Part shown: positions 849 to 18,102 of the stretch, in pieces
Position numbering within the stretch: the first letter of the stretch is position 1
Layout: every line of letters begins with the position of its first letter
NCBI GenBank assembly: GCA_019115125.1
Contig: DXEG01000060.1
Coordinates: forward strand, 23,725-47,724
Source: Candidatus Blautia faecipullorum
GTDB lineage: Bacteria; Bacillota; Clostridia; Lachnospirales; Lachnospiraceae
Reading direction: 5' to 3'
Length of the DNA: 24,000 bases
Notes under the pieces: model-generated
What the model was told of the DNA's origin: nothing
Database searches by the model: none
The model's input: only the letters and a program-made list of their open reading frames with translations
Program-made: the position numbers and the translations under genes

Positions 849-1060
849 TCAGCCATATCGTTATGAAAAGAAAACATTGGAAAAGATAACTCGGTAAATA
901 ATTACAAAAACCAACAGAACCAAACCGCTCATTATCCTTTAAAATACAAAGGGAATATGATACTATAAGATAAATTAAGATAATATTCTCATTTGTACTA
1001 CAAGGCATTTCTACTACACTGATCTGCAATTTTAAAAATACATAGGAGGAGGCAAAAGGC

Positions 1061-7900: not shown

Positions 7901-8084
7901 GTTCTGTATCCAGCGCCTGACTGGCCCAGAATGCCGCCTTGAATGCCTCGTTTCCGATCCAGCCAGTTCCAAGGATCAGAACATTGCTCTGCTTCTTGTT
8001 TCCTCTGATTTCTGCATATTCGCAGATTGGTTTTTCATATAGAAGATCATAAATCCGCAGTCGGTATTCGCCTATTTTTGCCAT
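4947..8084 (-). CDS. giant multidomain protein (1045 aa): NAD(P)-type Rossmann head, EHxRW (RyR-like) module, CARF-like domain, PD-(D/E)xK (Card1/Can2, DUF1887-like) nuclease
   Basis: GGGAGAAGGA lies 5 nt before ATG 8084. GxGxxG is present at residues 39-44 (VLILGTGWIGNEA). EHRRW is at 7116..7130, followed by RGF...LHMCLCDCG. Residues ~512-665 resemble the Card1 CARF layout (VITLSDG...; DIIINCVPNRGYDAALAIG; NFSLAEYIQLMGG, cf. Card1 LSLKEYLDAHG). The C-terminus has GLIFELIVYY (E892), NEIDIIA (D968) and MVSCKTS (S981-x-K983), a restriction-endonuclease-fold pattern with Ser in place of the usual Glu. Confidence 0.9.
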   Translation of the reverse strand: MAKIGEYRLRIYDLLYEKPICEYAEIRGNKKQSNVLILGTGWIGNEAFKAAFWASQALDTELSITVASQNAAAYKEQVLSTKAGACMPALKLYAEQKHYANLRFVDIDVEKGMDSAGLAPLDFAANRYNYIIISLGDAEHNWLAASELITQISGAQAESAGQRHRILVNVFNELSDSISTDEQEMLIEAGRDNGIEVHFFGNESVTGTELDRIARNINFSYSMKYDQRINKKDADDQFEASRVAEFVESPKDYEIGDISIAANFIGANYAADSSFASAVHIPVKLAMCKNVDIKKAPVDTLKEAIRKKNKLYWSLVALEHRRWNAYTVTRGFRAPTPKEEETLLYQNGNTHQDKQRLLHMCLCDCGTKASLANDFDHQYDLWIRKKCPANDPSELDRASLRAHQLTKKLSSQVDIEAVLHLVVGNSPEYSNLRRAISKLANDDDNSLVLYQKSLDAAREYALSISSEEADHIEEVNKILSPIKTRNARMDFFSLDEQLVEMLPFALWYGKKYGTVITLSDGMTTSTYDVIIPTLFCAQNAVFIGKAVNSRKYQNAIAIYFESRGNNTVPEFITLSSMDVESIFACLEEQLIKYGHHDIIINCVPNRGYDAALAIGRLMEKYTGNINAVQYLQNKGIVSFSADKNVGVGLDNKNFSLAEYIQLMGGRIANEYAGLYDSSEYESIMALFKKYCEPTHLKGANGKASGSFNTWAAVTKFFSQAAKDMNYGDGIKQDLEGDELHYTGSFSETIFRNSMIGNVLEQLQTYHIIRDYEKNIAGPIVTVDFEYVNPEIGSLLQQFEMGQITETDQYKSLKFIPMNGGLKVSSRLVQQAPIVSSEETEVHRKVKLAFLQDLLQRRYIENLQFNTEDDTVTFAFSDAATMRLMKTQGLIFELIVYYLMRESGKYDDVETGVKIAWDAEDTPQEQKLIEMLDRKGPSCFGYSEYVKARGEVIKQAIIGEGESVKNEIDIIALSGMNATMVSCKTSDNDNMQWVYEIRAVSDHFQSKGVLAVSSDYRNKGRAAFVERANQMNVTIWGTETLWNSNI

Positions 8085-8917: not shown

Positions 8918-9478
8918 CTATCGGATCACGCTATATGTCCTGTCAAATTCGTCTCTTTCAACGAAATTCCAATCACACTCGGTCACATTGCCTACATCAT
9001 CATAAGAAATACCGTAGAAAATGAGCATTGCATCCTCTGTGGCTGCCTCCATGGTTCCCCAAAGCTGCGCTGTATATCTCCGGTCTGAAGAAGCCTTATC
9101 AATGACCAGCCCCTTCTTTTCTACCAAAAACGTCACCTCAGGACACATCTCAAGCTTCGCATCCCAGGCTGGCAGAGGCTTCGGAATCTGCTCGAAGGTA
9201 TCTCCTTCGATATGTCTGTGATTCGCCTCAAAGTATTCCTTATCATTGGGATATGGACTGTCGGTACTATCCAGCTTGATCCAGTCACCAGCCATCGCTT
9301 TCTCTCCGCCGACAGCTCCGTTGACTGCCTCCCGCGAATGGATTTCATATCTGCCATCACCAAGATCGCAGATCTTGCCATTCAGCATCAGTTCTTTTAT
9401 AACAGCATTATCGCTTCCCAGCTGATAAGCCTTAACCAATTTTCCTTTATTCTTAATCACTTCATACATGATTTTCAC
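8918..9478 (-). CDS. hypothetical protein (186 aa)
   Basis: ORF-track frame with GAGGTG 6 nt before ATG 9478. Ordinary globular composition. No motif I recognise. Confidence 0.7.
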   Translation of the reverse strand: MKIMYEVIKNKGKLVKAYQLGSDNAVIKELMLNGKICDLGDGRYEIHSREAVNGAVGGEKAMAGDWIKLDSTDSPYPNDKEYFEANHRHIEGDTFEQIPKPLPAWDAKLEMCPEVTFLVEKKGLVIDKASSDRRYTAQLWGTMEAATEDAMLIFYGISYDDVGNVTECDWNFVERDEFDRTYSVIR

Positions 9479-9542: not shown

Positions 9543-9562
9543 AGAAGCTGTCAACAGCTTTT
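9543..9562. terminator. short hairpin with flanking T/A runs, possible terminator between rsr and the 186-aa gene
   Basis: AAGCTG-tcaa-CAGCTT (9545-9560) is extendable by A-T/G-U pairs. TTTATATT follows on the plus strand and AAAAA precedes on the minus strand. About 135 nt downstream of the rsr stop. Confidence 0.3.
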
Positions 9563-9695
9563 TATATTATATCATAGAATCTTCCTATGAGCCATTGCAA
9601 AACGCTATCCACCTCTCCGTTTTCTAAAGTTGTATAGCTACCTTCGTCCCAGGATCTGCTGATCACCACCTCCTTCCCGGGAACAAAGCTCGATG

Positions 9696-11231
9696 TTACG
9701 CCGTTTTCTCGGATTTGTTGTAGTTTTCCACATCCTTTACCATACTTCCCATCCCTGCTTCTGCAAGGTTAATGAACGAAAGTACACGGTCGCTCCAGCC
9801 TGCAATGAGGTTAAAGCGTGCGCCGCAGAACTGCTGTGTACCATAGCCCTGAAGATCTACACCATGCACCCAGAAGTCTTTGTTGTACTTGCTGCGGTAT
9901 TTGTTCGCAAGCCCCTGTATGGTGGTTTCAAGACCACAGTTGCACTCGTTATCCGAGAAATAGATAACTCGGTCGAACGGCTTAAAGCGTTTGCCCTTAT
10001 CGACCTCCAATGCATATTCCATCGGAAGTGAAAGGTCTGTGCCACCGCCTGCAAATGAGTTCTGTAATGCAATTTCAAGAACAGAATCATACTTGCCATA
10101 GTTTGCGATACGATATCCTCTCTCTTCACTGTTTTTATACACATCCTCCGGGAATTGCATTCCGCGCCGTCTGTAGTATTCACGATAGAGAGTCTTCGAT
10201 GCTTCAAAGTAGCATACCGTTGCATCTTCGCAAAGCTTGTTTGTCATCGCCCCGAGTAAAGAAGCGATATCAGAGCAGCGGATATCGCTCTTTGCAGAAA
10301 TCCGACAGCTCATTGAACCGGATACATCAATGGCGATAAGTGTTCTGCCCTTGATTTTCTCCATATTATCAACCGAAGCCGTAACTGCGCTCTCGAGAGC
10401 ACGGTGAATCTCATCAGTCATGAGTCCTTCCTTCTCAAGCATGCGATAAGCGCTGAAGAAACGGAACGGAAGCTGCTTCGACTTCTTCACCTGAACCGAA
10501 TCAGAAAGTACCGCAAGCACCGGAGTGATATCCGCACCGGACATAATAATGTTGCGAAGGTTACGAAGCAATGCCATGTAGCCAACTTTGCCGGATGCAA
10601 TAAGCTCATCCCAGACTTCCCTTGTATTGCCACGAGAGGAAAGTTCCGTTTCCCAGGTGTACGGAGTCTCAAGGGTATCGTTTAAGATCTTCCCAAAGAG
10701 TTCCTCAATCTCTTTGGACTTCGGATTCGGATGTGTAATGCGGAGAATATCACGGAACTTCACATCTTTGCAGCCGCCATTGTATTTTGCAATCTGGTAC
10801 TCATCGAAGTTCTGGATCACCTCAGCCATCCCACGCTTTAATGCGTTCGGAAACGGCTTGCCATACATGGTCTTGTAGCAGGCCATGATTTCTGTAACAT
10901 CATCCGGACGTTTGACCACACTACAAATGGTCTGGCGGGTAAATGCAGATGCCTCGCGGGCGATCGCAGCGGTAAGCACATGGCTTACAGAACGCATGTT
11001 GAAAACCTCACGAGCAAAGCAGGCAAGGTTGCTAACAAACTCCGGGTGCTTCTTGCAGAGTTCTGTTGCAAGCTGGACGATTTCGTTATCCGTGGATCCA
11101 TAGTATTTTTCCTCGCTAAACATGGTGGTCACTACTGCTGTCATAAGTTGTTCCTTATTGCTCATTCGGTATGCTGCATGACCGGAACGGTTTTCGGTTT
11201 TGATTGTGTTGGTTGTGTTGAACTTAGCCAT
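9696..11231 (-). CDS. rsr: Ro60-related protein Rsr (TROVE domain + C-terminal vWA domain)
   Basis: 511 aa with GGAGGTG 6 nt before the ATG. The N-terminal and central TROVE-like sequence (NRSGHAAYRM...EKYYG...; GYMALLRNLRNI; KQLPFRFFSAY) is followed by a vWA MIDAS motif (LIAIDVSGSMS). Two Y-RNA-like genes lie immediately upstream, which is the classic rsr context. Confidence 0.9.
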   Translation of the reverse strand: MAKFNTTNTIKTENRSGHAAYRMSNKEQLMTAVVTTMFSEEKYYGSTDNEIVQLATELCKKHPEFVSNLACFAREVFNMRSVSHVLTAAIAREASAFTRQTICSVVKRPDDVTEIMACYKTMYGKPFPNALKRGMAEVIQNFDEYQIAKYNGGCKDVKFRDILRITHPNPKSKEIEELFGKILNDTLETPYTWETELSSRGNTREVWDELIASGKVGYMALLRNLRNIIMSGADITPVLAVLSDSVQVKKSKQLPFRFFSAYRMLEKEGLMTDEIHRALESAVTASVDNMEKIKGRTLIAIDVSGSMSCRISAKSDIRCSDIASLLGAMTNKLCEDATVCYFEASKTLYREYYRRRGMQFPEDVYKNSEERGYRIANYGKYDSVLEIALQNSFAGGGTDLSLPMEYALEVDKGKRFKPFDRVIYFSDNECNCGLETTIQGLANKYRSKYNKDFWVHGVDLQGYGTQQFCGARFNLIAGWSDRVLSFINLAEAGMGSMVKDVENYNKSEKTA

Positions 11232-11295
11232 TTGGGCACCTCCATCTTTCTTAAGTGTATGGGGAAATATGTGACTGTTTATATAAATAACATGC

Positions 11296-11422
11296 AGAGA
11301 ATAGGCGATAACAGTAAATATAACGCTTTCCCATTAAGCTACAGAACAGCTATGCTGTCCCAGTGGGATTCGAACCCACATCCCTCGATAACCAGACTCG
11401 AAGTAACTGCCATCTGCACTGC
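11296..11422 (-). ncRNA. yrlA: Y RNA, YrlA-type with tRNA-like module (copy 1, rsr-proximal)
   Basis: On the minus strand the ends form a long stem (GAUGGCAGU with ACUGUUAUC, including two G-U pairs). Enclosed are a variable-arm-like hairpin (CUUCGA...UCGAGG) and a T arm GUGGG-UUCGAAU-CCCAC (11363..11379). Next come an acceptor-like stem closed by a loop (UGGGACAG-CAUAG-CUGUUCUG), then UA and a D arm (GCUU-AAUGGGA-AAGC). This permuted tRNA mimic matches the published YrlA architecture. RNA ends are not determined. Confidence 0.8.
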
Positions 11423-11440
11423 TGCATGATATTTATCCTT

Positions 11441-11482
11441 CAAATGAAACTGCCGAACCGGTCGCTTCACTCAGCCCGGCAG
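11441..11482 (-). terminator. hairpin plus U-rich tract between the two Y RNA genes
   Basis: Minus strand reads CUGCCGGGC...GACCGGUUCGGCAG (stem with G-U pairs, plus coordinates 11450..11482) followed by UUUCAUUUG. It sits about 20 nt downstream of the distal Y RNA. Confidence 0.4.
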
Positions 11483-11500
11483 CTTCTGTAACCACATATA

Positions 11501-11627
11501 AGAGAATCGGCGATAACAGTAAACAAAGCGCTTGACCGTTAAGCTACGGAACAGCTCAGCCGTCCCGGTGGGATTCGAACCCACATCCCTCGATAACCAG
11601 ACTCGAAGTAACTGTTATCTGCACTGC
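11501..11627 (-). ncRNA. yrlA: Y RNA, YrlA-type with tRNA-like module (copy 2, distal)
   Basis: Same 127-nt architecture, offset 205 nt from copy 1. Terminal stem is GAUAACAGU/ACUGUUAUC (9 perfect bp). T arm is GUGGG-UUCGAAU-CCCAC. The closed acceptor-like stem is CGGGACGG-CUGAG-CUGUUCCG and the D arm is GCUU-AACGGUC-AAGC. Differences from copy 1 fall in loops or keep pairing (A-U to G-U, C-G to U-G). Confidence 0.8.
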
Positions 11628-11699
11628 CTATATGTAATTACCAATGTATCTGATGTGTCTGTGCTTTCGTCTTAATCTTCCAAGACTCATCAGGGGCGT

Positions 11700-11786
11700 T
11701 CATTGCCCGAGCACAATGTGCTTCGGTAAAGGTTCCACCGGATTGTACGCTATCCGGCTTCTTTGAATAAATCCTGACCAATACAT
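11700..11786 (-). CDS. possible 28-aa upstream ORF or leader peptide
   Basis: AAAGGAGGAGGT lies 4 nt before ATG 11786. It translates MYWSGFIQRSRIAYNPVEPLPKHIVLGQ. The region also contains hairpins (CCGGAT-N8-ATCCGG), so it may be a structured leader rather than coding. Confidence 0.25.
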   Translation of the reverse strand: MYWSGFIQRSRIAYNPVEPLPKHIVLGQ

Positions 11787-11830
11787 CCGACCTCCTCCTT
11801 TCGATGATTCAATATTAAACCCTTATTTTT

Positions 11831-11866
11831 GTTTCAGCATCTGTGGCATCCCACAGAAACTGAAAC
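11831..11866 (-). other. nested inverted repeat / RNA hairpin downstream of the AAA+ gene
   Basis: GTTTCAG-cat-CTGTGG-catc-CCACAG-aaa-CTGAAAC, with 7-bp outer and 6-bp inner arms. No U-tract follows on the minus strand, so it is not a canonical terminator. Confidence 0.5.
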
Positions 11867-11870
11867 TGTC

Positions 11871-11888
11871 TTTGAAACTTTTGAAACA
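11871..11888 (-). promoter_or_regulatory. two adjacent copies of the TTTGAAAC(T/A) motif
   Basis: TTTGAAACT at 11871-11879 and TTTGAAACA at 11880-11888. They sit 27-44 nt after the AAA+ stop and about 85-100 nt upstream of the 11786 uORF. Confidence 0.35.
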
Positions 11889-11914
11889 CATTTCTGATCA
11901 AATCATGCCTACTG

Positions 11915-13291
11915 TCAGGCCCCGGCAGGAAGAGCTGTTTCCTCCTCTGGTACGATTGTTATGACAATATTTTCGATATCACCTGACAGTAAAACCTTGT
12001 GGCCTTTGTATCGACCAATATTGCGATCATACACAGTTGCTGCTGTGATTGCCTCTCTCACAGCGTCCCTGACGCCCCTGGCGCCATAGTTGCTGTGCTG
12101 TTCCTTCAGCTGCACCATTAGTTCCTCGTCCATATGCTCAAGTTCCATCTCGTAATTCTGCAGCTCTTCCACTACAAATTTGCTGACGATGTCTGTAAGC
12201 GCATCTGCGGGAAGTTCACGGAAAGCCAGACAGTTCGTAATCTTGCCGGCGATTTCCGGATGACCGCAGGCCTTAGCGAGAGTGTTTCTACAAATCTCCT
12301 TCTTTCGGAATGCTGACGCCTCTTCATAAACCTTCATATCTACCGGAATGTTGCTGGTAATGACAAAAATCACATGGCTCAGATCAATATCCGGTGAATT
12401 GTCCGCAAGGTGAACCACACCGCTGGAAAAGCATTCCATAAGCCCGGTATAGATACGATCCGTTGCCTTCTCAATCTCGTCCAGCAGGAAAACCTGGTAT
12501 GGATTGGATCGGACAGGCTCAAACACTGTAGGATCCTTATAGCCTATATAGGAAGGCGGAGATCCGAAGAATCTGTTGACCGAATGCTCACCAATGAACT
12601 CGTTGAGGGCAATCTGATGAAACCCATAAGCCTGTCCGGTCAGCTTCTCCAGTGCTCCCGGAAGAGCTTTTCCAACCTCTGTTTTGCCAACACCGGTCGG
12701 GCCAAAGAGAACAATAACCTCAACTTCTGGCTTTTTTCTGCGGAGATTTGCTGAAATCAGTTCACTGATCTTTTTGATAGCTTCGTCCTGTCCGTAAATA
12801 CCACGCTTCAGTTCCGCCGCCAGTTCATCCGGCCAGACCGTTTTTGTCTGCTTCTTCTGTTCAAGTTCACGGACTTTATCCTTATCCACAATGTATTTTG
12901 AGCTGCCTGCAGCTGTCTCGTTCTCACTTGTCTGCGACAAAGTTACTGCAGATTTCATCGGATTTTTCTCAGCTTCCTGCGATTTTTCCAGCACTGTATA
13001 ACTCCACACCTGATCGGTATTGCAGATTGTTACAGTTCCACCATCCTCCTCTGGCTTGAATTCGATGACCATATCCACAGCCGGAATGTCCTGCGGCAGG
13101 CTCACACGTCCCGCCTCCATACAGGTTTTATCAGCAAAGTTAACGTGGTAAATCTCCATCTCTTTTTTCCCGCTGATTCCCTGAAGCATTTTCCTCAGAC
13201 CACTTTTACCACTCATCAAAATGACAGATGTCAAATGACCACGGTCTTCATCGAAACCAATTACGATACAGTCTTTATCTGAATATCTCAT
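11915..13291 (-). CDS. Clp/Hsp100-type AAA+ ATPase (single ClpB/ClpA D2-like module) with a novel ~180-aa N-terminal domain
   Basis: IYGQDEAIKKI..., Walker A (LFGPTGVGKTEVGKAL), FFGSPPSYIGYKD, Walker B (FLLDEIEKA) and sensor (VITSNIP) follow the AAA_2 (ClpB D2) pattern. Start set at ATG 13291 (GGAAAGGGGGA 7 nt upstream) rather than ATG 13333, which has no SD. Confidence 0.85.
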   Translation of the reverse strand: MRYSDKDCIVIGFDEDRGHLTSVILMSGKSGLRKMLQGISGKKEMEIYHVNFADKTCMEAGRVSLPQDIPAVDMVIEFKPEEDGGTVTICNTDQVWSYTVLEKSQEAEKNPMKSAVTLSQTSENETAAGSSKYIVDKDKVRELEQKKQTKTVWPDELAAELKRGIYGQDEAIKKISELISANLRRKKPEVEVIVLFGPTGVGKTEVGKALPGALEKLTGQAYGFHQIALNEFIGEHSVNRFFGSPPSYIGYKDPTVFEPVRSNPYQVFLLDEIEKATDRIYTGLMECFSSGVVHLADNSPDIDLSHVIFVITSNIPVDMKVYEEASAFRKKEICRNTLAKACGHPEIAGKITNCLAFRELPADALTDIVSKFVVEELQNYEMELEHMDEELMVQLKEQHSNYGARGVRDAVREAITAATVYDRNIGRYKGHKVLLSGDIENIVITIVPEEETALPAGA

Positions 13292-13333
13292 GTGAGATTC
13301 CCCCTTTCCTTTTGATAAGTCCATTTCCTGCAT

Positions 13334-14050
13334 CTATCGATATTTGCATAACAGGTTAACGTTTACCTTCTCATATGCATTGAATTCATTAGCGATTTCT
13401 TCATCGGACTTACCGGCTACCGGCTCATACCAGTCCTGTGCACTGAAATAGTCAATATTCTCCTGTATTTTGAACTCTCTCCCATGGCGTGCATACATCT
13501 CATTGATGATCATTTGAATCTCATCGCTGCTATAACCTTCAATATCTGATACCTCCAGGTATCGATCCGCACTATCCGGCATCAGATAGGCTGGCATTGC
13601 TGCATTCTCTTCAGATGTTGCTTCATTATCAGAATCAATGTCCTGAACCTCCTCCGCTGTGAAGGTGTCATCTTCCATCGTATCGGACAGAACCTGCTCA
13701 TTCATGTAGTTGGTGATGGCCTGCTCTTCCGAAGATACATGAGAACGGTTATAGAAAAACGCTCCAATAAACAAGGAAATTACAGCACAGACAATAACTG
13801 ACTTCCACGGAATTCCTGTATGGACAGTTGTTCCAGCCGTGCCAATGGTATGAATCATATTGCCTGCATTACCTGTTGTCCTGTCGTTTCCGGCTGCTGT
13901 CTGCGGACGATATGTCCTGGTTGTTCTTACAATTCTCTGATTCCTCTGGGCCCTGTGATCAGCTTCCGCCTGAGACACATTATCCAATGTGGTTCTTCCG
14001 GTTCTGTCATCTTTATAGTATCGTTTTCCATTGATCAGTACATAACTCAT
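13334..14050 (-). CDS. single-pass membrane protein with C-terminal YARHG domain
   Basis: Start set at ATG 14050 (GTAAGGAGG 8 nt upstream, MSYVLINGKRYY...). One TM helix (WKSVIVCAVISLFIGAFFY), an acidic linker, then the literal YARHG motif (INEMYARHGREFKIQENIDYFSAQDWY). Confidence 0.8.
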   Translation of the reverse strand: MSYVLINGKRYYKDDRTGRTTLDNVSQAEADHRAQRNQRIVRTTRTYRPQTAAGNDRTTGNAGNMIHTIGTAGTTVHTGIPWKSVIVCAVISLFIGAFFYNRSHVSSEEQAITNYMNEQVLSDTMEDDTFTAEEVQDIDSDNEATSEENAAMPAYLMPDSADRYLEVSDIEGYSSDEIQMIINEMYARHGREFKIQENIDYFSAQDWYEPVAGKSDEEIANEFNAYEKVNVNLLCKYR

Positions 14051-14079
14051 TAGAAACGCCTCCTTACAAAACCGTCCGT

Positions 14080-14466
14080 TCACTTACTGGACTCATAATG
14101 CATCCTGATACGAGCAAATACATCTTCAGCAGTAAGATGCCCCAGTACAGTATCATGAACTCTGTCCATCTCTTCCCGTGTCATCAGTCCGCTGATTTCA
14201 AGAAGTCCCTCAGAAGATCCGTGCCCGTTTGCAATAACACTGCATACAGCGCCTTTGCCCGGTCCCTGCCAGACATTACTGTTACTGTCTTTCGGCTTCG
14301 GACGCCCTTCCGATCCGTAGTAGCAAATCTGCATTCCAAAGTTTTCAAATGGAATACCTGCTTCTGTCAGCAAATCATCCAGTTTCTCCAATTCATCGGA
14401 AGCATTGCCTTCAGCAAAGCCACCGGAAAGTGCCATCATCAGTTTAAGTAAATCCATTGTGCTCAT
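14080..14466 (-). CDS. hypothetical protein (128 aa)
   Basis: ORF-track frame with CAGGAGGAATACAAA before ATG 14466. First gene after the 97-nt spacer that follows E1. No motif recognised. Confidence 0.7.
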   Translation of the reverse strand: MSTMDLLKLMMALSGGFAEGNASDELEKLDDLLTEAGIPFENFGMQICYYGSEGRPKPKDSNSNVWQGPGKGAVCSVIANGHGSSEGLLEISGLMTREEMDRVHDTVLGHLTAEDVFARIRMHYESSK

Positions 14467-14555
14467 TTTGTATTCCTCCTGCCTTTTGATGATTTAAGGA
14501 TAAACTCTTCTGATCATTTCATCATCCGGCGGCTTTTGTTTCTGCTGAAACTACA

Positions 14556-14564
14556 TTTGAAACT
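14556..14564 (-). promoter_or_regulatory. TTTGAAACT motif abutting the E1 stop codon, with a second GTTTCAG half-site and GTTTC/GAAAC inverted repeat next to it
   Basis: TTTGAAACT at 14556-14564 and CTGAAACT at 14545-14552. On the minus strand these are AGTTTCA repeats 11 nt apart (start to start). GTTTC-tgct-GAAAC lies at 14538-14551. About 90 nt upstream of ATG 14466. Confidence 0.35.
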
Positions 14565-15916
14565 TATGCTACAATATTACATCCAATATCTGAAGATGAT
14601 TTCTCTGCTCCGCAATAGGAGCAGGAATCATTTTTCTGCGCCGGTCCGGACTTCCAGGTAAACGGCCTGCGTTCATCCTCTGTACCAAACAGATGCATGT
14701 ACGGATTAACATCCTGATCTATCGGATAATTTAGCAGCACCGTACACTGATTGATGTATGGAAGCAGTTTTGCCTCATAGCCTTCCTCATGCTCCATCAA
14801 AATGTCGATAGCCAGCTTTGTTTCAAAGATCGCTGTAAGCTGGATATCCAGATACATCCCCGGCTGGAAATGAAGCTTCTCAAGCTCTGTCTCCGTTGCA
14901 TAGAAACGCCTGCGCACCGCCTGATTGCTGTAATCGACACCCTTATCTTCGCCATAAGCACAGGTGTAGCATGCCATGCCGGAATTCGGTTTATACCAGA
15001 ACACCTCTCCTGTGGAGCCTCTTGGGCCACAGCCTGCATCAATCATCGGAATGTTGTATTTATCTGCCAGCTCGTTACAAACATAGCCGCAATGACGATT
15101 ATCCGCACAGCAAAGGATAATGGAATCCTTCCAGATAATCTTCTCAAGTTCAGCAGGATCCACATGCTGGATCAGATCTCTGAAGGTATAAATCTTGCAG
15201 TTCGGATTGATGTCAGCAGCTCTTTCCTTGAAACAGTCAACTTTATAGCGACCTACATCATGGATACCACATTCGTGACGGCAAACATTGTGATAAGCAA
15301 GGATGTCATTGTCAGCCACGATCAGGGAACCGATTCCCGCTCTTACCAGTTCCAGACCGACCTTAAAACCGCCGGATCCGATACCGGAAATAATAGCCTG
15401 CTTTGCTGCCATTCTATCCTGCTCTACGATTCCTTGATTTCTGGAAAATACATCCTGGCGTGTGGAGTAATAATCAATATTGATCTCTGATCCGGAATTA
15501 TCTCTGACAAAGATTTCTGCCTGCTCTTCATTCCAGACAATGGAAAGACCAAACTGACCGAAAATGTCACCGTCTTCTCTCCCTGTGTGCTCTTTTCTGA
15601 CCGCCATACCCAAGACCTTCGCATCTGTTCTTGCATCGTATAGCGCCTCCTGTACGATGTTATAGGTTTTAGTCTCTGGGTGGTAATAGCCCCAAAGTTC
15701 ACCCTCATAACGCTGCTTCCGGTATTCTTCCGGAATCAGAACCGTGTATGGTCTGAGCGCCTCCTGAATCTTTTCAAAGTCCATGAAGTCTTCCTCAGAT
15801 GTTCCTTTCTCTGCCGTATTGTCCATGAAAGTAACTTCTGCAGTTTCTGTCTTAACCGGTTCTGTTTCGGCCGATACCGCTGCCTTCTGCAATGCATTTG
15901 CTGTTCTGTTATCCAT
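14564..15916 (-). CDS. ThiF/MoeB-family E1-like activating enzyme (Bil D-like position)
   Basis: Rossmann ATP site (IISGIGSGGFKVGLELVRAGIG), IVADNDILAYHNVCRH (cf. vD.D.v..sNLnRQ), LCCADN, and CxxC pairs (MACYTCAY; CSYCG). Start set at ATG 15916 (GGAGGAGG 8 nt upstream). Alternative starts are 15958, 15826 and 15781. Confidence 0.85.
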   Translation of the reverse strand: MDNRTANALQKAAVSAETEPVKTETAEVTFMDNTAEKGTSEEDFMDFEKIQEALRPYTVLIPEEYRKQRYEGELWGYYHPETKTYNIVQEALYDARTDAKVLGMAVRKEHTGREDGDIFGQFGLSIVWNEEQAEIFVRDNSGSEINIDYYSTRQDVFSRNQGIVEQDRMAAKQAIISGIGSGGFKVGLELVRAGIGSLIVADNDILAYHNVCRHECGIHDVGRYKVDCFKERAADINPNCKIYTFRDLIQHVDPAELEKIIWKDSIILCCADNRHCGYVCNELADKYNIPMIDAGCGPRGSTGEVFWYKPNSGMACYTCAYGEDKGVDYSNQAVRRRFYATETELEKLHFQPGMYLDIQLTAIFETKLAIDILMEHEEGYEAKLLPYINQCTVLLNYPIDQDVNPYMHLFGTEDERRPFTWKSGPAQKNDSCSYCGAEKSSSDIGCNIVA

Positions 15917-16569
15917 ATATTTTTCCTCCTCCGGGTGTCCCCTGAACAAATCGGACAATCTTGTGCGGATTGATCCTTTATCTTCGGCTGCTGCAAGCGT
16001 TCCACGCTCTGCTTTTTGGCCGCCTTTCTTGCGGCTTCATTACGTTCTACAGTTTCTTTGAGTCTTCGCAGGGCAATACGGGGCATAGCCGCTCTGACTG
16101 CCTTATCGTTGATCTCATACTCTACTTCCGTCTCGTCGCCATTCTCATCAATATACCAGAACTTAATCCGGAATTCAGGGTCAATGAAGATGAGTCCGTT
16201 TACAACGCCGCCAAACTGCTGCGCAAGCTTGATATTTGCCGGATGATCACCATGGCTGAAATGCAGGTACCCGTCCGGATGTCTGTGAACCTGAGAGACT
16301 GTCAGCTTACCGTTTGAGAAATCATAATATTCGCTGAGTCGTGTCGATAAGTGGTCTGCATAAACATGATCCTTCTCACACATAGTTGGCGTATAGGTGG
16401 CATTGATGCCGCTATCCGATACCATGTCAAAAAAGAAGTCATTTCCGATGCGGATGCCCGGCATCTGGATAATGCTTTCGTTTCCGGGATGCCGCCCCAC
16501 CTCGAGCAGCATCCCTCTGTAGGTATTGTGGGTAATATAAACATGATACTTATCTTTTCGCTGAAACAT
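15736..16569 (-). CDS. JAB/JAMM (MPN+) metallopeptidase (Bil C-like position)
   Basis: Complete JAMM signature: upstream Glu (MLLEVGR) and HRHPDGYLHFSHGD (HxH-x7-S-xx-D). ATG 16569 has GGAGG 5 nt upstream (the track's 16575 start is GTG). The last ~60 codons are extremely Arg/Lys-rich and overlap the E1 gene by 181 nt. Confidence 0.8.
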   Translation of the reverse strand: MFQRKDKYHVYITHNTYRGMLLEVGRHPGNESIIQMPGIRIGNDFFFDMVSDSGINATYTPTMCEKDHVYADHLSTRLSEYYDFSNGKLTVSQVHRHPDGYLHFSHGDHPANIKLAQQFGGVVNGLIFIDPEFRIKFWYIDENGDETEVEYEINDKAVRAAMPRIALRRLKETVERNEAARKAAKKQSVERLQQPKIKDQSAQDCPICSGDTRRRKNIWITEQQMHCRRQRYRPKQNRLRQKLQKLLSWTIRQRKEHLRKTSWTLKRFRRRSDHTRF

Positions 16570-16580
16570 AGACACCTCCG

Positions 16581-17033
16581 TTATCTATCGCGATCCACAC
16601 CTGTCTTCTCCCATACACAATAGACGTCGATCCACCTTAGAACCCTAGTCATGGCAGTGTAGCCATTCACGGACGCAGGATCCGTAGATTTTACCTGACA
16701 GATATAGGGAAGTCCCATCGTGGAATCAGAAATCAGGTGATGGAAGCCCGGCTTCAATTTTGTCATAGGATACACTTTGATTGAGCCGCCAAAGAGGCCA
16801 TCGGCATCTCTGCCCGGGTGATCATGCTCGTATACCACATGGAATACAAAGGTTCGCCAACGCTGATCCGGTGCCGGCTTAACCGGCAGGGTCACATCCA
16901 CACAGAATCTATGCTTGTTGTCATAACAAAACATCATTTTCATATTCGGATGGTTATACTCACGCATAAACCTCAGGAAAGCATCCTTTTCAAACTGCAG
17001 TAAAGCTCCGTTCTCTTTTTCATACCAATACAT
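16581..17033 (-). CDS. UBC-fold E2-like conjugating enzyme (Bil B-like position)
   Basis: IKVYPMTKLKPGFHHLISDSTMGLPYICQV...YTAMTRVLRWI follows the E2 core pattern (yP..pP...HPN...G.iCl...W). C in YICQ is the candidate catalytic Cys. ATG 17033 has GGAGGG 6 nt upstream (the track's 17039 start is TTG). Confidence 0.7.
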   Translation of the reverse strand: MYWYEKENGALLQFEKDAFLRFMREYNHPNMKMMFCYDNKHRFCVDVTLPVKPAPDQRWRTFVFHVVYEHDHPGRDADGLFGGSIKVYPMTKLKPGFHHLISDSTMGLPYICQVKSTDPASVNGYTAMTRVLRWIDVYCVWEKTGVDRDR

Positions 17034-17045
17034 ATGCAACCCTCC

Positions 17046-17426
17046 TTATCGTGCATAGTTCTTCTCTGGTGCCGTATTGATTACAGGGGTGCTGGAATTC
17101 TGCGCCTGACTTGCAGGCACCACCTCTCCGTTGCGGAATACAAACGCCTCAACGTCTGCAGTTCCATTTGCCTGATCTTCGAGCTGGCCATAATTAGGCT
17201 CATGAGCTGTCCTAATAACAGGAGTCGTAGAGTTCTCTGCCTGATTGGCTGGTACTATTCTTCCTTTGTCGTATACGAATGCCTCTACATCTGCAGATCT
17301 ATTTGCCTGATCCTCAAGCTGGCCATAATTCTTATATCTTCCGGTTCTGATCATATCCATATGCTTTTCCTCCTTGTCAAAATCCGCATATTCCTTAAAG
17401 TTACCATTTATTACAGATGCATTCAT
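17046..17426 (-). CDS. 126-aa tandem-repeat protein occupying the Ubl/modifier slot of the E2-JAB-E1 operon
   Basis: ATG 17426 has GAAAGGAGG 9 nt upstream (MNASVINGNFKEY...). It contains two 45-aa repeats, NYGQLEDQAN(R/G)(S/T)ADVEAFV(Y/F)..G..VPA.QA.NS.TPVI.TA.E, and begins a third (NYAR-stop). The stop is 12 nt from the E2 start. Confidence 0.7.
   Translation of the reverse strand: MNASVINGNFKEYADFDKEEKHMDMIRTGRYKNYGQLEDQANRSADVEAFVYDKGRIVPANQAENSTTPVIRTAHEPNYGQLEDQANGTADVEAFVFRNGEVVPASQAQNSSTPVINTAPEKNYAR
17049..17330 (-). repeat. 2 x 135-nt in-frame tandem repeat plus a 12-nt partial third unit
   Basis: AATTATGGC (N-Y-G) occurs at 17330-17322 and 17195-17187. AAC-TAT-GCA-CGA (N-Y-A-R) lies at 17060-17049. 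Confidence 0.9.
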
Positions 17427-17442
17427 TGTACAGTCCTCCTTT

Positions 17443-17661
17443 CTATCTAAACAAAGATCTGATGATATAACCGATGACAAATACCATGATCACAATCGGC
17501 ATGACTGCATTGATCCATGCCCAGGTGTTATTGGCAAATGCCGTAACGATAAACTCCTTATATTTGATACAGCTGACCACCACCAGCATTGTTCCTGCTA
17601 TTGTCCAGCCGATCAGGAACCGTTTGATCACGGTCCACACTGTAACTACCCGATAATCCAT
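17443..17661 (-). CDS. small membrane protein (72 aa, 2 predicted TM helices)
   Basis: ATG 17661 (MDYRVVTVWTVIK...) has GGGGGTGGTG 6 nt upstream. The track's 17700 start is GTG inside the previous gene. Hydrophobic stretches: FLIGWTIAGTMLVVVSCI and WAWINAVMPIVIMVFVIGYII. Confidence 0.65.
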   Translation of the reverse strand: MDYRVVTVWTVIKRFLIGWTIAGTMLVVVSCIKYKEFIVTAFANNTWAWINAVMPIVIMVFVIGYIIRSLFR

Positions 17662-17666
17662 GTCTG

Positions 17667-17945
17667 TCACCACCCCCGATAGCTTCTGCGCAACTTCCAC
17701 TTCAGCCGCACGGTAAAATAAACAACAGTTGCTATCACAATCAGGATTGGAAATCCGGAGGACAACAGATTTGCCATGAAAATGGCAATCCGCGCTGTCA
17801 CCGCCCCAAAATTGGCAATGATGCTAAAAGCTGCCAATCCTGAAAGCACAGAACAGATAATTAGCGCGAGTGTTACGCCCGACACGATCCTAACTCCGGT
17901 TCCTCTGTAGCTTTCCTGTTTAAAGATACTCCCTGCACGTCTCAT
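17667..17945 (-). CDS. small membrane protein (92 aa, 2-3 predicted TM helices)
   Basis: ORF-track frame with hydrophobic stretches VSGVTLALIICSVLSGLAAFSIIANFGAV and GFPILIVIATVVYFTV. Its ATG overlaps the stop of a 15-codon uORF (ACATGAGA). Confidence 0.65.
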   Translation of the reverse strand: MRRAGSIFKQESYRGTGVRIVSGVTLALIICSVLSGLAAFSIIANFGAVTARIAIFMANLLSSGFPILIVIATVVYFTVRLKWKLRRSYRGW

Positions 17946-17989
17946 GTGAACGTCACCTCCCTTGGACCTGTATCTGTATATGCTGTCAT
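17942..17989 (-). CDS. possible 15-aa upstream ORF coupled to the first membrane-protein gene
   Basis: GAAAGGAGG lies 7 nt before ATG 17989. It translates MTAYTDTGPREVTFT. Its TGA overlaps the downstream ATG (ATGA). Confidence 0.3.
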   Translation of the reverse strand: MTAYTDTGPREVTFT

Positions 17990-18069: not shown

Positions 18070-18102
18070 ATTGAAACTTAAATTTCAGCCTTTTTTGAAA
18101 CT
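18070..18102 (-). promoter_or_regulatory. two copies of the (A/T)TTGAAACT motif
   Basis: ATTGAAACT at 18070-18078 and TTTGAAACT at 18094-18102, in the 192-nt spacer between the degenerate ATPase gene and the membrane/Ubl operon. About 80-110 nt upstream of the uORF ATG 17989. Confidence 0.35.

What the first reader, a model, noticed from the sequence alone, without database searches (positions are those of the whole stretch)
9696..17989. Unusual co-linear chaining of a ubiquitin-like operon, an AAA+ unfoldase trio and an Rsr/Y-RNA module, with no RtcB
Seen directly: three blocks follow one another on the same strand, with no intervening opposite-strand gene.
- block 1: the Ubl operon (17989..14564)
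- block 2: the 128-aa / YARHG / ClpB-D2-like AAA+ trio (14466..11915)
- block 3: Y RNA x2 plus rsr (11627..9696)

Each spacer between blocks carries the same AGTTTCAAA motif.

Established: rsr/Y RNA loci are usually linked to RNA repair genes (rtcB/rtcA). None is present here.

Inference:
- The three blocks may be co-regulated parts of one conflict system carried on a mobile element. One reading is protein tagging plus unfolding coupled to RNA surveillance. Another is tRNA-like decoys against tRNA- or RNA-targeting nucleases.
- I know of no described system with this combination.
Basis: inference. Interest (0 to 1): 0.75.

Follow-up and report, generated by a model that had tools for sequence, protein, structure and literature searches.

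The report
ICE ubiquitin-like module plus Rsr cassette
A conjugative element of gut Lachnospiraceae carries a conserved, undescribed ubiquitin-like tagging plus unfoldase gene set. An optional hammerhead-ribozyme / Y-RNA / Ro60 cassette has been inserted into it, so the three blocks are neighbours, not one obligatory system.

Summary
All genes from 17945 to 9696 lie on the minus strand, AGTTTCAAA sits in both spacers, and no RtcB is present.

**Blocks 1 and 2 are one conserved module.**
- Its parts are two small membrane proteins, a tandem-repeat peptide precursor, a UBC-fold E2, a JAB peptidase, an E1, a YARHG membrane protein, a ClpB-D2-like AAA+ and a 186-aa protein.
- It sits next to a type IV coupling protein in more than 12 diverged lineages (56-100% aa identity) of Lachnospiraceae mobile elements.

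**Block 3 is a 2.3-kb optional cassette (9616-11939).**
- It lies between the AAA+ gene and the 186-aa gene.
- It is present only in a crown sub-lineage and in L016. It is absent from sister and deep lineages.
- Rsr relatives at 72% identity or less never sit with the module, and they also lack RtcB.

- It starts with the element's own tandem AGTTTCA motif.
Compensatory changes support all three of its stems.
- Then come one or two YrlA-like Y RNAs (23 of 38 pairs covary) and rsr.

**Other points.**
- The motif is element-wide, with five sites in the window, not specific to the three blocks.
- No beta-grasp Ubl was found.

Verdict: new variants of known kinds, not a three-block system.

The parts
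17667..17945 (-). TM92: small membrane protein, first gene of the conserved module
   Evidence: Conserved at 47-88% identity in all module lineages, with a C-terminus ..RRSFWGW. It moves together with TM85 to a position after the AAA+ gene in L014, L026 and L028. No family hit.
17443..17661 (-). TM85/72: second small membrane protein
   Evidence: Called as 72 aa on identical contigs. Always adjacent to TM92 in relatives.
17046..17426 (-). Tandem-repeat peptide precursor (126 aa): leader, two 45-aa units, one-residue tail. Candidate modifier in place of a Ubl
   Evidence: 135-nt direct repeat. Family members carry 1 to 3 or more units. Each unit ends N[YF]G before QLEDQ, the last ends N[YF]A, and a hypervariable tail follows. 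The AF2 model has pLDDT 44, so the fold is unresolved.
16581..17033 (-). E2-like protein (UBC fold), probable catalytic Cys114
   Evidence: AF2 pLDDT 90, pTM 0.85. About 46 of the 50 best Foldseek PDB hits are UBC E2 enzymes. FHH(99-101) and C114 are conserved. The family is tiny: 26 representatives among 1.84 billion.
15736..16569 (-). JAB/JAMM peptidase. The conserved part is aa 1-190; the tail overlaps the E1 frame
   Evidence: Invariant E25/E33, H97-x-H99-x7-S107-x2-D110. Fused in frame to E1 in L012, L014, L016 and L024. Split into two frames here and in L010.
14564..15958 (-). E1-like adenylating enzyme (ThiF domain aa 178-339, C-terminal CxxC pairs)
   Evidence: Pfam ThiF 1.7e-24. PADLOC Cap2-type 'E1-E2' models 2e-22. 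PDB: ThiF, MoeB, PaaA, MccB, Uba5, Cap2.
14546..14564 (-). Tandem motif AGTTTCA-N5-AGTTTCA at the E1 stop, upstream of the 128-aa/YARHG/AAA+ genes
   Evidence: Conserved at the same place in L010, L022 and L030.
14080..14466 (-). 128-aa accessory gene, a second small presence/absence insertion
   Evidence: Absent from L010 (indel about 14051-14471), L012, L014 and L016. Present in L022, L030 and L032-34. No family hit.
13334..14050 (-). YARHG-domain membrane protein
   Evidence: Pfam YARHG 1.4e-15 at aa 166-248. Hydrophobic segment near aa 92-111, seen in the sequence. Conserved next to the AAA+ gene.
11915..13291 (-). Single-ring AAA+ ATPase, ClpA/ClpB/ClpV D2-like, with a family-specific N-terminal region of about 170 aa
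   Evidence: Pfam AAA_2. NCBIfam ClpA 449-715 and ClpB 513-824. Conserved at 56-100% in the module. Reduced to a 28-aa remnant in L028.
9616..11939 (-). Optional Rsr cassette as a whole (presence/absence polymorphism)
   Evidence: blastn against L010 gives borders 11940 and 9615. Flanked by an imperfect 14-nt direct repeat, GAGGAGGAAACAGC / GAGAGGTGGATAGC.
11861..11879 (-). Tandem AGTTTCA motif at the 5' end of the cassette, followed by GAAAC, a -10-like TAATAT and an RBS-like GGAGG
   Evidence: Present at this place in every Rsr-bearing locus and absent after the AAA+ gene in Rsr-less loci.
11660..11715 (-). Type III hammerhead ribozyme, predicted cleavage after U-C at the 5' side
   Evidence: Rfam Hammerhead_3: 26.1 bits here and 33.2 bits in L016, below the 48.5 threshold. 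The core pattern occurs once against 0.02 expected. Five sequence variants keep stems I, II and III through compensatory changes, with CUGAUGA, GAAA and U-C invariant.
11494..11640 (-). Y RNA copy 1 (YrlA-like, tRNA-like domain plus long terminal stem)
   Evidence: 171 bits to the model built from it and its relatives (circular by construction). Independent support comes from the hits next to rsr in distant loci and the partial Rfam YrlA match. Fold. Covariation.
11446..11486 (-). Strong hairpin between the two Y RNAs (possible 3'-end or terminator element of copy 1)
   Evidence: -27 kcal/mol, z = -3.2, 0 of 200 shuffles as stable. Function not tested.
11290..11435 (-). Y RNA copy 2
   Evidence: 161 bits. 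89% identical to copy 1. Relatives carry one or two copies.
9696..11231 (-). rsr (Ro60 orthologue, TROVE plus vWA with a DxSxS MIDAS motif)
   Evidence: Pfam. D302, S304 and S306 are invariant in the clade alignment.
8918..9469 (-). p186: conserved last gene of the module, separated from the AAA+ gene by the cassette
   Evidence: Directly follows the AAA+ gene (or TM85) in L010, L012, L014, L025, L027 and L028 at 45-76% identity. No family or PDB hit.
18072..18102 (-). Motif pair (24-nt spacing) upstream of TM92, followed by GAAAC-N13-TACAAT
   Evidence: Conserved in L016, L022 and L025.

Best explanation
The region is a composite of two things that happen to be chained on one strand of a Lachnospiraceae conjugative element.

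**(1) A conserved, uncharacterised ubiquitination-like module.**
- Gene order: TM92, TM85, tandem-repeat peptide precursor, E2, JAB, E1, (128-aa accessory gene), YARHG membrane protein, ClpB-D2-like AAA+, p186.
- It lies just downstream of the type IV coupling protein.
- Inferred mechanism: JAB cuts the precursor after [Y/F]-[G/A] to release 45-aa peptides. E1 adenylates their C-terminus and E2 carries them on Cys114 to targets. The dedicated AAA+ ring then acts on tagged or membrane-associated proteins, together with the YARHG and small membrane proteins.

**(2) A self-contained 2.3-kb RNA cassette, inserted between the AAA+ gene and p186 in one sub-lineage.**
- Order: the element's own tandem AGTTTCA promoter-like unit, a type III hammerhead ribozyme, one or two YrlA-like Y RNAs, then rsr.
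- Inferred mechanism: the cassette is transcribed from that unit and/or by read-through from the AAA+ gene. The hammerhead cuts off everything upstream. The Y RNAs are trimmed and bound by Rsr. The RNP works as in other bacteria, in structured-RNA decay with a host exonuclease or in tRNA mimicry.
- It is optional cargo, not a component of the tagging module.

**Shown:** gene identities, conservation of the module, the presence/absence pattern of the cassette, and the RNA structures.

**Inferred:** every biochemical step.
For: **Module conservation.**
- Same genes and order in L010, L012, L014, L016, L021-L028 and L030-L035 at 56-97% protein identity, next to the coupling protein wherever the flank is available.
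- AAA+ loss leaves a remnant (L028) or a truncation (L024).

**The cassette is optional.**
- It is a clean indel against L010, flanked by short direct repeats.
- In the species-dereplicated genome set, 1 locus has rsr, 5 lack it and 2 are uninformative.
- On the AAA+ tree, Rsr is in the crown clade and in L016. It is absent from L010/L023, L025 and all deep lineages, so at least two gain or loss events are needed.

**Rsr-centred sample.**
- All 9 metagenome loci with Rsr at 74% identity or more sit in this slot.
- None of 8 loci at 50-67% with usable flanks has a module gene. Neither do L019 and L020 (74% and 70%).
- Their neighbours are FeoB, MarR, SbcCD, AcrB and glycosidases, with no RtcB.

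**Cassette anatomy.**
- The hammerhead is present in every slot cassette and in no other Rsr locus.
- Y RNA model hits lie next to rsr in nearly all contexts and in no Rsr-less module locus.
- 23 of 38 pairs carry compensatory changes. 92.8% of cells are paired against 42-57% in slid controls.

**Motif and transcription.**
- The tandem form is found only on the coding strand and only in module loci, and it heads every cassette.
- Fixed geometry: AGTTTCA-N24/25-GAAAC-N13-TAnAAT.
- No minus-strand intrinsic terminator is predicted between the blocks.
Against: - Rsr occupies exactly the same slot in two lineages that differ by about 22% in protein sequence. Rsr and AAA+ identities track each other (79/77, 88/85, 91/87%). 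The cassette has therefore been kept for a long time, which could reflect a functional tie to the module.
- A hammerhead upstream of the Y RNAs makes most sense if transcription enters from the module.
- The cassette uses the same motif as the module's operons, so co-expression is likely.
- No expression or biochemical data exist.
- The modifier is unproven (AF2 pLDDT 44), and the module's biological role is unknown.
- The sample is limited to about 20 distinct lineages, from gut metagenomes.
Confidence: 0.72

Rival explanations
1. One reading: the three blocks are one integrated conflict system. Protein tagging and unfolding are mechanistically coupled to RNA surveillance by Rsr/Y RNA.
For: - Same strand, with no predicted terminator between the blocks.
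- Shared motif.
- The hammerhead implies processing out of a longer transcript.
- The cassette is retained in the same slot in lineages 77-100% identical, with parallel divergence.
Against: - The cassette is absent from 8 informative module lineages, including all the deep ones and the cultured Frisingicoccus caecimuris DSM 28559.
- Rsr at 72% identity or less is never linked to the module.
- The association traces to one or two events, not to repeated independent joining.
Confidence: 0.1
2. The Rsr cassette is anti-defence or RNA-damage cargo of the element. The tRNA-like Y RNAs act as decoys or inhibitors of anticodon nucleases, or the Rsr RNP clears damaged RNA after transfer into a new host. 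It works independently of the tagging module.
For: - Another conjugative element (L020) carries tRNA, two Y RNAs and rsr inside an island. That island also holds a T4-Rnl1-like RNA ligase, a KTI12/AAA_33 kinase, an HD protein, ASCH, an ADP-ribosylglycohydrolase and a tRNA_bind protein.
- YrlA was proposed as a competitive inhibitor of an anticodon nuclease in PMC7790460.
- The cassette is optional and sits among variable cargo: TIR-TPR, Card1-like nucleases, type III CRISPR in relatives.
Against: - No direct evidence.
- Most Rsr relatives in this clade are chromosomal, next to housekeeping genes, so a general RNA quality-control role is equally possible.
- No RNA repair enzyme accompanies the cassette here.
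Confidence: 0.3
3. The E2/JAB/E1/AAA+ gene set is part of the conjugation machinery (backbone) of this element family, not a conflict system. For example, it could process or remodel envelope or transfer proteins.
For: - It is adjacent to the coupling protein and the conserved 425-aa gene in nearly every lineage with an upstream flank (L022 is an exception).
- It includes two small membrane proteins and a YARHG protein. YARHG is thought to be an extracellular, possibly peptidoglycan-binding domain (PMC3355149).
- It has no PADLOC system match beyond generic E1 and AAA+ domains.
Against: - Variants survive with parts deleted: L032 lacks the precursor, E2 and JAB; L028 lacks the AAA+; L024 is truncated.
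- Gene order is permuted in L014, L026 and L028.
- Known bacterial E1/E2/JAB sets (CBASS type II, Bil) are immune systems (PMC11601596).
Confidence: 0.25
4. The repeat protein is a multi-core precursor of a ribosomal peptide natural product. The E1-like enzyme then works as MccB or PaaA do, modifying a peptide, and not as a protein-tagging E1.
For: - PaaA (2.4e-8) and MccB (1.5e-5) are among the best PDB matches of the E1.
- The precursor has a leader, 1 to 3 or more near-identical core units and variable tails.
- No beta-grasp fold is predicted.
- Membrane proteins in the set could serve export or immunity.
Against: - A UBC-fold E2 with a conserved Cys, together with a JAB peptidase fused to the E1, is the signature of conjugation systems.
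- No transporter or other tailoring enzyme is present.
Confidence: 0.12

Closest known systems
Bil (bacterial ISG15-like) systems, BilABCD
   Same: Separate E2, JAB/JAMM peptidase and E1 genes in one operon on mobile DNA. A modifier gene sits immediately upstream of the E2. JAB is expected to trim a precursor tail (PMC11601596).
   Different: - No beta-grasp Ubl. The candidate modifier is a 45-aa unit in a tandem-repeat precursor.
- PADLOC matched only CBASS-type E1-E2 models for the E1 and nothing for the E2, JAB or repeat protein.
- The extra conserved partners (AAA+, YARHG, two membrane proteins, p186) are not part of Bil.
Type I Bub (6E.1/DUF6527) operons
   Same: JAB-E1 fusion (present in L012, L014, L016, L024). 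The modifier lies next to the E2. JAB is thought to cleave a pre-protein to expose the reactive C-terminus.
   Different: - No DUF6527/BubE protein.
- The E2 keeps a cysteine (C114), not the Bub serine.
- The modifier is not fused to the E2 and is not a recognised Ubl.
Type II CBASS Cap2/Cap3
   Same: The E1 matches Cap2-type models (2e-22; PDB Cap2). A JAB partner is present. No stand-alone Ubl is needed in that system.
   Different: No CD-NTase and no cyclic-nucleotide effector. The E2 is a separate small protein, not fused to the E1.
[quoted passage not shown]
   Same: rsr sits next to one or two Y RNAs, at least one with a tRNA-like domain (T-arm, D-arm). Y RNAs are made from polycistronic transcripts (PMC4201824; PMC7790460).
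   Different: - No rtcBA or rtcR.
- Carried as a cassette on a conjugative element.
- A hammerhead ribozyme precedes the Y RNAs. The paper library returned no report of that combination.
Type III hammerhead ribozymes (Rfam RF00008)
   Same: Complete catalytic core, helices I and II capped by loops and helix III open, with a U-C cleavage site.
   Different: Scores are below the Rfam threshold (26-33 against 48.5 bits). Stem I is very short (4-6 bp). The ribozyme sits 13-19 nt upstream of a Y RNA.
Tag-and-unfold pathways (ubiquitin-Cdc48/proteasome, Pup-Mpa)
   Same: A conjugation enzyme set is genetically tied to a dedicated AAA+ ring. This is a resemblance in logic only.
   Different: No protease partner is encoded. 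The AAA+ is a ClpB-D2-type single ring. No evidence yet that it reads the tag.

Membership tests
YrlA-type bacterial Y RNA (Rfam RF02553) | Encoded next to an rsr (Ro60) gene | tested here: met
   Both copies lie 59-409 nt upstream of rsr. The same RNA is found beside rsr in L019, L020, L036, L039, L040, L042, L044-48, L050 and L052.
YrlA-type bacterial Y RNA (Rfam RF02553) | tRNA-like domain: T-arm with a GUUCGAAUC-type loop, an adjoining stem, and a D-arm | tested here: met
   Rfam aligns model positions 27-81. The helices carry compensatory changes: 4 of 5, 9 of 9 and 4 of 4 pairs.
YrlA-type bacterial Y RNA (Rfam RF02553) | Long stem formed by the 5' and 3' ends, carrying the Ro60 binding site | tested here: inconclusive
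   A 15-pair terminal stem is predicted. Its outer helix is nearly invariant in sequence across 23 RNAs, as expected for a protein-binding site. Ro60 binding was not testable.
YrlA-type bacterial Y RNA (Rfam RF02553) | Score at or above the family gathering threshold (69 bits) | tested here: not met
   26.5 and 23.2 bits in the window, 37.2 bits in L016. These are divergent members.
Hammerhead ribozyme type III (RF00008) | Conserved core CUGAUGA ... GAAA and a U-H cleavage site | tested here: met
   Invariant in all 6 sequence variants. The pattern occurs once in the window against 0.02 expected.
Hammerhead ribozyme type III (RF00008) | Three helices: I and II closed by loops, III open | tested here: met
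   Compensatory changes:
- Stem I: GGGC/GCCC, GAGCG/CGCUC, GGGUG/CGCCC.
- Stem II: GUCUU/AAGAC, GUCGU/ACGAC.
- Stem III: UUGUGC/GCACAG, AUGUGU/ACACAU, GAUGUG/CACAUC.

L041 has a broken stem III.
Hammerhead ribozyme type III (RF00008) | Rfam gathering score (48.5 bits) | tested here: not met
   26.1 bits (E 0.043) in the window and 33.2 bits (E 0.0027) in L016.
Hammerhead ribozyme type III (RF00008) | Self-cleavage | not testable with these tools
   Needs an in vitro transcription and cleavage assay.
Ro60/Rsr | TROVE domain plus a C-terminal vWA domain with a MIDAS motif | tested here: met
   TROVE 1.4e-34, vWA_Ro60 2.6e-11. DxSxS (D302, S304, S306) is invariant.
Bacterial ubiquitination-like operons (Bil / Bub / CBASS type II) | E1 adenylation domain | tested here: met
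   ThiF 1.7e-24. Cap2-type HMMs. PDB ThiF, MoeB and Cap2.
Bacterial ubiquitination-like operons (Bil / Bub / CBASS type II) | E2 with a UBC fold and a catalytic residue | tested here: met
   - Confident model (pLDDT 90). UBC enzymes dominate the fold hits, although all E-values are at or above 0.07.
- C114 lies 13-14 residues after FHH, like Cys after HPN.
- No sequence-level hit to Pfam or PDB E2s.
Bacterial ubiquitination-like operons (Bil / Bub / CBASS type II) | JAB/JAMM peptidase | tested here: met
   JAMM motif invariant. No Pfam or PDB sequence hit.
Bacterial ubiquitination-like operons (Bil / Bub / CBASS type II) | A beta-grasp Ubl (Bil, Bub) or a CD-NTase substrate (CBASS) | tested here: not met
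   - No Ubl or CD-NTase family in any ORF.
- The only candidate is the repeat precursor, whose model is unreliable (pLDDT 44).
- No module protein has a conserved C-terminal Gly.
Type I/II Bub | DUF6527 (BubE) serine protease | tested here: not met
   No PF20137 hit in the Pfam scans of the window ORFs.
rsr-yrlBA-rtcBA RNA repair operon | rtcB and rtcA next to rsr | tested here: not met
   None in the window, nor among the 10 nearest neighbours scanned at six distant Rsr loci of this clade.

The most novel reading that the evidence does not exclude
The conserved module is a bacterial tag-and-unfold pathway of a new type.
- A 45-aa peptide, not a beta-grasp Ubl, is released from a poly-precursor by JAB.
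- E1 and E2 attach it to targets.
- A dedicated ClpB-D2-like AAA+ reads the tag at the membrane.
- In one sub-lineage the element has added a ribozyme-processed Rsr/Y RNA unit, so that protein and RNA quality control (or anti-defence) are expressed together on entry into a new host.
Probability: 0.15. Interest if true: 0.85.

Novelty: new variant of a known kind. Interest (0 to 1): 0.6.

Why it matters
**The module.**
- Bacterial E1/E2/JAB systems have only recently been shown to be real conjugation pathways (CBASS type II, Bil, Bub). The biological role of several of them is still open.
- This module ties such an enzyme set to an AAA+ unfoldase-type ATPase, to membrane proteins, and to a repeat precursor of small peptides.
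- If those peptides are the modifier, the definition of a ubiquitin-like tag would widen. It would also give a bacterial model for tag-dependent unfolding.
- One cultured carrier exists, Frisingicoccus caecimuris DSM 28559, so the idea is testable.

**The cassette.**
- A hammerhead placed 13-19 nt upstream of a Y RNA is a simple, testable case of a ribozyme used to mature a bacterial non-coding RNA out of an operon transcript.
- Rsr/Y RNA units travelling on conjugative elements support a role in surviving RNA damage or RNA-targeting defences. One of them (L020) sits with a tRNA, an RNA ligase and a kinase.

Tried and rejected
- **Rfam at gathering thresholds:** nothing in the window. Only the permissive scan showed the Y RNAs and the hammerhead.
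- **ARAGORN:** no tRNA in the window.
- **Nucleotide searches of PLSDB plasmids and INPHARED phages:** no match.
- **E2 protein searches in plasmids, phages and IMG/VR:** no match.
- **Hammerhead plus Y RNA pattern in IMG/VR:** no match.
- **Rsr clade in IMG/VR:** only a 32% relative. The element is therefore neither a phage nor a known plasmid.
- **Sequence searches of E2, JAB and p186 against PDB:** nothing, even with a profile.
- **First attempt to count hammerhead pairs on a MAFFT alignment:** failed because of register errors. It was replaced by explicit parsing.
- **The motif as an RNA hairpin:** rejected. The folds are no better than shuffles (z -1.8 and -0.01).
- **The motif as a plain sigma-70 promoter:** rejected. 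No -35 match lies at the right distance, and the consensus scan is at chance level (29 found against 28.2 expected). An activator- or alternative-sigma-dependent promoter remains the best guess.
- **The AAA+ C-terminus (..PAGA) as a conjugation substrate:** rejected. It belongs to the cassette border and is not conserved.
- **The repeat precursor as a beta-grasp Ubl:** could not be supported (pLDDT 44).

Full report
**What is in the window**

- Every substantial gene from 23970 down to 4947 is on the minus strand.
- Pfam identifies the following:
  - a TrwB/TraG-type type IV coupling protein (20196-21602);
  - a ThiF-type E1 (14564-15958);
  - a YARHG protein (13334-14083);
  - an AAA_2 ATPase (11915-13333);
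  - Rsr, with TROVE and the Ro60 vWA domain (9696-11231).
- NCBIfam aligns the ATPase only to the second (D2) module of ClpA, ClpB and ClpV.
- The ORF at 15736-16575 has no family hit. It carries an E..HxHx7Sx2D JAMM motif that is invariant in five homologues down to 64% identity.
- The 152-aa ORF at 16581-17039 has no sequence hit anywhere.
  - Its AlphaFold model is confident (pLDDT 90, pTM 0.85).
  - About 46 of the 50 best Foldseek matches in the PDB are UBC-type E2 enzymes. The scores are modest (TM 0.45-0.51, E at or above 0.07).
  - FHH(99-101) followed by C114 matches the HPN-to-Cys spacing of E2s.
- The E2/JAB/E1 reading of block 1 is therefore right, and so are the 128-aa/YARHG/AAA+ trio and rsr.
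- The closest named source is a 'Candidatus Blautia faecipullorum' MAG.
- The identical Rsr protein occurs in 79 blocks of the assembly collection, always in this same context.

**The RNAs**

- Rfam gives nothing at curated thresholds.
- The permissive scan gives two partial YrlA matches, at 11530-11588 and 11325-11383. They score 26.5 and 23.2 bits against a threshold of 69.
- The same scan gives a complete type III hammerhead at 11660-11715, at 26.1 bits against a threshold of 48.5.
- The two Y RNA copies are a 127-nt direct repeat, 89% identical. Each folds into a long terminal stem enclosing a stem-loop, a T-arm, a further stem and a D-arm.
- I aligned 13 copies from related loci. RNAalifold gave 38 pairs. 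From these I built a covariance model.
- The model finds the RNA beside rsr in nearly all other Rsr loci I had fetched, whatever their context. It finds none in module loci that lack rsr.
- On 23 such RNAs:
  - 92.8% of cells are paired, against 42-57% when partners are slid;
  - 23 of 38 pairs have compensatory changes;
  - 0 of 500 shuffles reach the observed values;
  - the alignment is fitted to the model, which inflates this somewhat.
- The outermost helix is almost invariant in sequence, as expected for a protein-binding site.

**The hammerhead**

- It is present 13-19 nt upstream of the first Y RNA in every cassette of this element family, and in no other Rsr locus.
- Five sequence variants keep the core (CUGAUGA, GAAA, U-C) and all three helices through compensatory changes.
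- The bare core pattern is expected 0.02 times in the window.
- The paper library holds no report linking a hammerhead to bacterial Y RNAs or Rsr.

**Are the three blocks one system?**

Module-centred sample.
- I looked up contigs encoding AAA+ homologues at 82, 69 and 63% identity.
- I also scanned species-representative genomes with an E2 alignment.
- tblastn maps show one recurrent gene set: TM92, TM85, repeat protein, E2, JAB, E1, YARHG, AAA+ and a 186-aa protein. In the window the last of these is at 8918-9478, beyond the finding's coordinates.
- The set is normally placed right after the coupling protein and a conserved 425-aa gene.
- It persists down to 56% AAA+ identity. The variations are minor:
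  - JAB and E1 are fused in L012, L014, L016 and L024;
  - the two membrane genes are moved behind the AAA+ gene in L014, L026 and L028;
  - the AAA+ gene is reduced to a 28-aa remnant in L028, and L024 is truncated.
- Blocks 1 and 2 are therefore parts of a single conserved module.

The Rsr block behaves differently.
- Against L010 (AAA+ 82%), the window has a clean 2.3-kb insertion, 9616-11939. It contains the last codons of the AAA+ gene, a copy of the motif, the hammerhead, both Y RNAs and rsr.
- It is bordered by an imperfect 14-nt direct repeat.
- The 128-aa gene is a second small indel.
- Lineages with rsr: the window's crown clade (L022, L030-L034, L041) and L016/L035.
- Lineages without rsr: L010, L023, L025 (Frisingicoccus caecimuris DSM 28559), and all deep lineages (L012, L014, L026, L027, L028).
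- On an AAA+ tree this needs at least two gain or loss events.

Rsr-centred sample.
- A metagenome scan with a clade alignment returned 29 loci.
- All nine with 74% identity or more lie in this slot.
- None of the eight at 50-67% identity with usable flanks contains any module gene.
- Neither do L019 (74%, chromosomal-looking) and L020 (70%, a different conjugative element).
- The immediate neighbours of the distant loci are FeoB, MarR, SbcCD, AcrB and glycosidases. None is RtcB.
- The association is therefore lineage-specific. 'No RtcB' is the norm in this clade.
- The literature says rsr joins rtcBA only 'in some bacteria' (PMC7790460).

**The motif**

- AGTTTCAAA occurs five times, always on the coding strand, against 0.37 expected.
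- It is in both spacers. It also lies upstream of TM92 (18094), upstream of the 92-aa gene (23692), and at 840.
- The extended form has a fixed geometry: AGTTTCA-N5-AGTTTCA (N17 before TM92), 24-25 nt, GAAAC, 13 nt, a TAnAAT-like box, then an RBS. The corresponding sites in diverged elements keep it.
- The tandem form occurs only in module loci and only on the coding strand. It heads every Rsr cassette, and it is absent after the AAA+ gene in Rsr-less loci.
- It does not fold as RNA better than shuffles, and it lacks a sigma-70 -35 box.
- I read it as the operator or promoter unit of an element-encoded regulator or sigma factor. This is an inference.
- The cassette brought, or copied, its own unit. 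Co-regulation with the rest of the element is therefore likely, but it is element-wide and not specific to the three blocks.
- No minus-strand intrinsic terminator is predicted between the blocks. Together with the hammerhead, this makes read-through from the AAA+ gene plausible.

**Where is the Ubl?**

- No ORF matches a Ubl family, and no module protein has a conserved C-terminal glycine.
- The gene just upstream of the E2 encodes a leader followed by 45-aa units.
- In 98 homologues:
  - there are one to three or more units;
  - each internal unit ends N[Y/F]G directly before QLEDQ;
  - the last unit ends N[Y/F]A;
  - a tail follows that varies from none or one to about 22 residues.
- This layout resembles a poly-modifier precursor trimmed by the JAB peptidase. 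Bil trims a precursor tail, and Type I Bub uses its JAB-E1 fusion to cut a Ubl-E2 pre-protein (PMC11601596).
- The AlphaFold model is unreliable (pLDDT 44), so this stays a hypothesis.
- A multi-core peptide natural-product precursor is the alternative. PaaA and MccB are among the best PDB matches of the E1.

**Comparison with known systems**

- The enzyme trio places the module among bacterial ubiquitination-like operons. It fails the membership tests of each described family:
  - no beta-grasp Ubl (Bil, Bub);
  - no DUF6527 (Bub);
  - no CD-NTase (CBASS type II).
- PADLOC matched only CBASS-type E1-E2 models for the E1 and nothing for the E2, JAB or repeat protein.
- Its conserved partners have no counterpart in those families: a ClpB-D2-like AAA+, a YARHG membrane protein, two small membrane proteins and p186.
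- The 2006 survey of prokaryotic Ub-like operons mentions only a ClpS link (PMC1779556).
- The E2 family is very small: 26 clusters among 1.84 billion representatives. It is absent from plasmid, phage and IMG/VR collections.
- The cassette is an ordinary Rsr/YrlA unit in its core. It is new in its hammerhead and in its carriage on a conjugative element.

**Verdict**

- The 'one three-block system' interpretation is only partly supported.
- What is really there is a conserved, undescribed ubiquitination-like/AAA+ module with an optional ribozyme-Y RNA-Rsr cassette inserted into it.
- Both are new variants of known kinds. Neither has a demonstrated function.

Noticed in passing
window 15736-15958 (JAB/E1 overlap): JAB and E1 lie in different frames with a 220-nt overlap, and the JAB ORF ends in a basic, out-of-frame-looking tail. 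In L012, L014, L016 and L024 the two are one in-frame fusion of 591-664 aa. L010 has two separate genes. This could be natural split-versus-fused variation, a frameshift mutation or programmed frameshifting.
   Followed up: partly
window 4947-8084 (-): The 1045-aa protein ends in a Card1/Can2-type PD-(D/E)xK nuclease domain (Pfam 2.8e-5, below the gathering cut-off; PADLOC CARF-PDDEXK 2e-10). Related elements carry type III CRISPR-Cas genes nearby (Cas10, RAMPs, Csx19, RT-Cas1 in L010, L012, L014). It may be a CRISPR-ancillary effector travelling on the element.
   Followed up: partly
L020 5367-17000: A different conjugative element (700-aa coupling protein, integrase) carries a tRNA with a long variable arm (9546-9629), two Y RNAs (9631-9791, 9856-9937) and rsr. 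They sit inside an island that also holds a T4 Rnl1-like RNA ligase, a KTI12/AAA_33 kinase, a radical SAM protein, an HD protein, ASCH, an ADP-ribosylglycohydrolase, PP2C and a tRNA_bind protein. It looks like an RNA-repair or anti-defence island.
   Followed up: partly
L041 1-5685: A mosaic. E1 is 92% and AAA+ 95% identical to the window, but Rsr only 74%. The hammerhead has a broken stem III, and there is a single Y RNA. This suggests cassette exchange by recombination, and possibly an inactivated ribozyme.
   Followed up: partly
L032 9798-9943 and L041 3666-3811: Their single Y RNA has the 5' end of copy 1 and the 3' end of copy 2. That is what unequal recombination between the tandem copies would produce. 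Copy number (1 or 2) varies among otherwise close elements.
   Followed up: partly
window 11446-11486 (-): A very stable hairpin (-27 kcal/mol, z -3.2) lies between the two Y RNAs, followed by a short U-rich stretch. It may mark the 3' end of copy 1 or be a processing site.
   Followed up: partly
window 1060-1359 and 1705-2004 (+): The 1141-aa plus-strand ORF (no family hit) contains a 300-nt internal direct repeat, 89% identical, spaced 645 nt. It is only 27-32% identical to its counterparts in L010 and L025, so it is fast-evolving cargo.
   Followed up: no
L004, L007-L009 (contig ends 162 nt upstream of rsr): Many short-read assemblies break inside the duplicated Y RNA region. Surveys based on short contigs will therefore under-count the linkage between rsr and the module.
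   Followed up: no
L032 5374-6807: A variant element in which the repeat precursor, E2 and JAB are deleted (TM85 runs straight into a partial E1). YARHG, AAA+, the cassette and p186 remain, so the enzyme set can decay while the rest persists.
   Followed up: no
window 11698-11793 (-): An RBS-like GGAGG and an ATG open a 31-codon ORF (MYW...) that runs into the hammerhead. It is not conserved in L016 or L022. It is probably a relic of the copied operon-leader unit, not a gene.
   Followed up: partly
window 21618-22922 (-): The conserved 434-aa acidic protein upstream of the coupling protein contains an HExxH-like motif (LHENTHCF) but has no family hit. It may be a metallopeptidase-like backbone protein of the element.
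   Followed up: no
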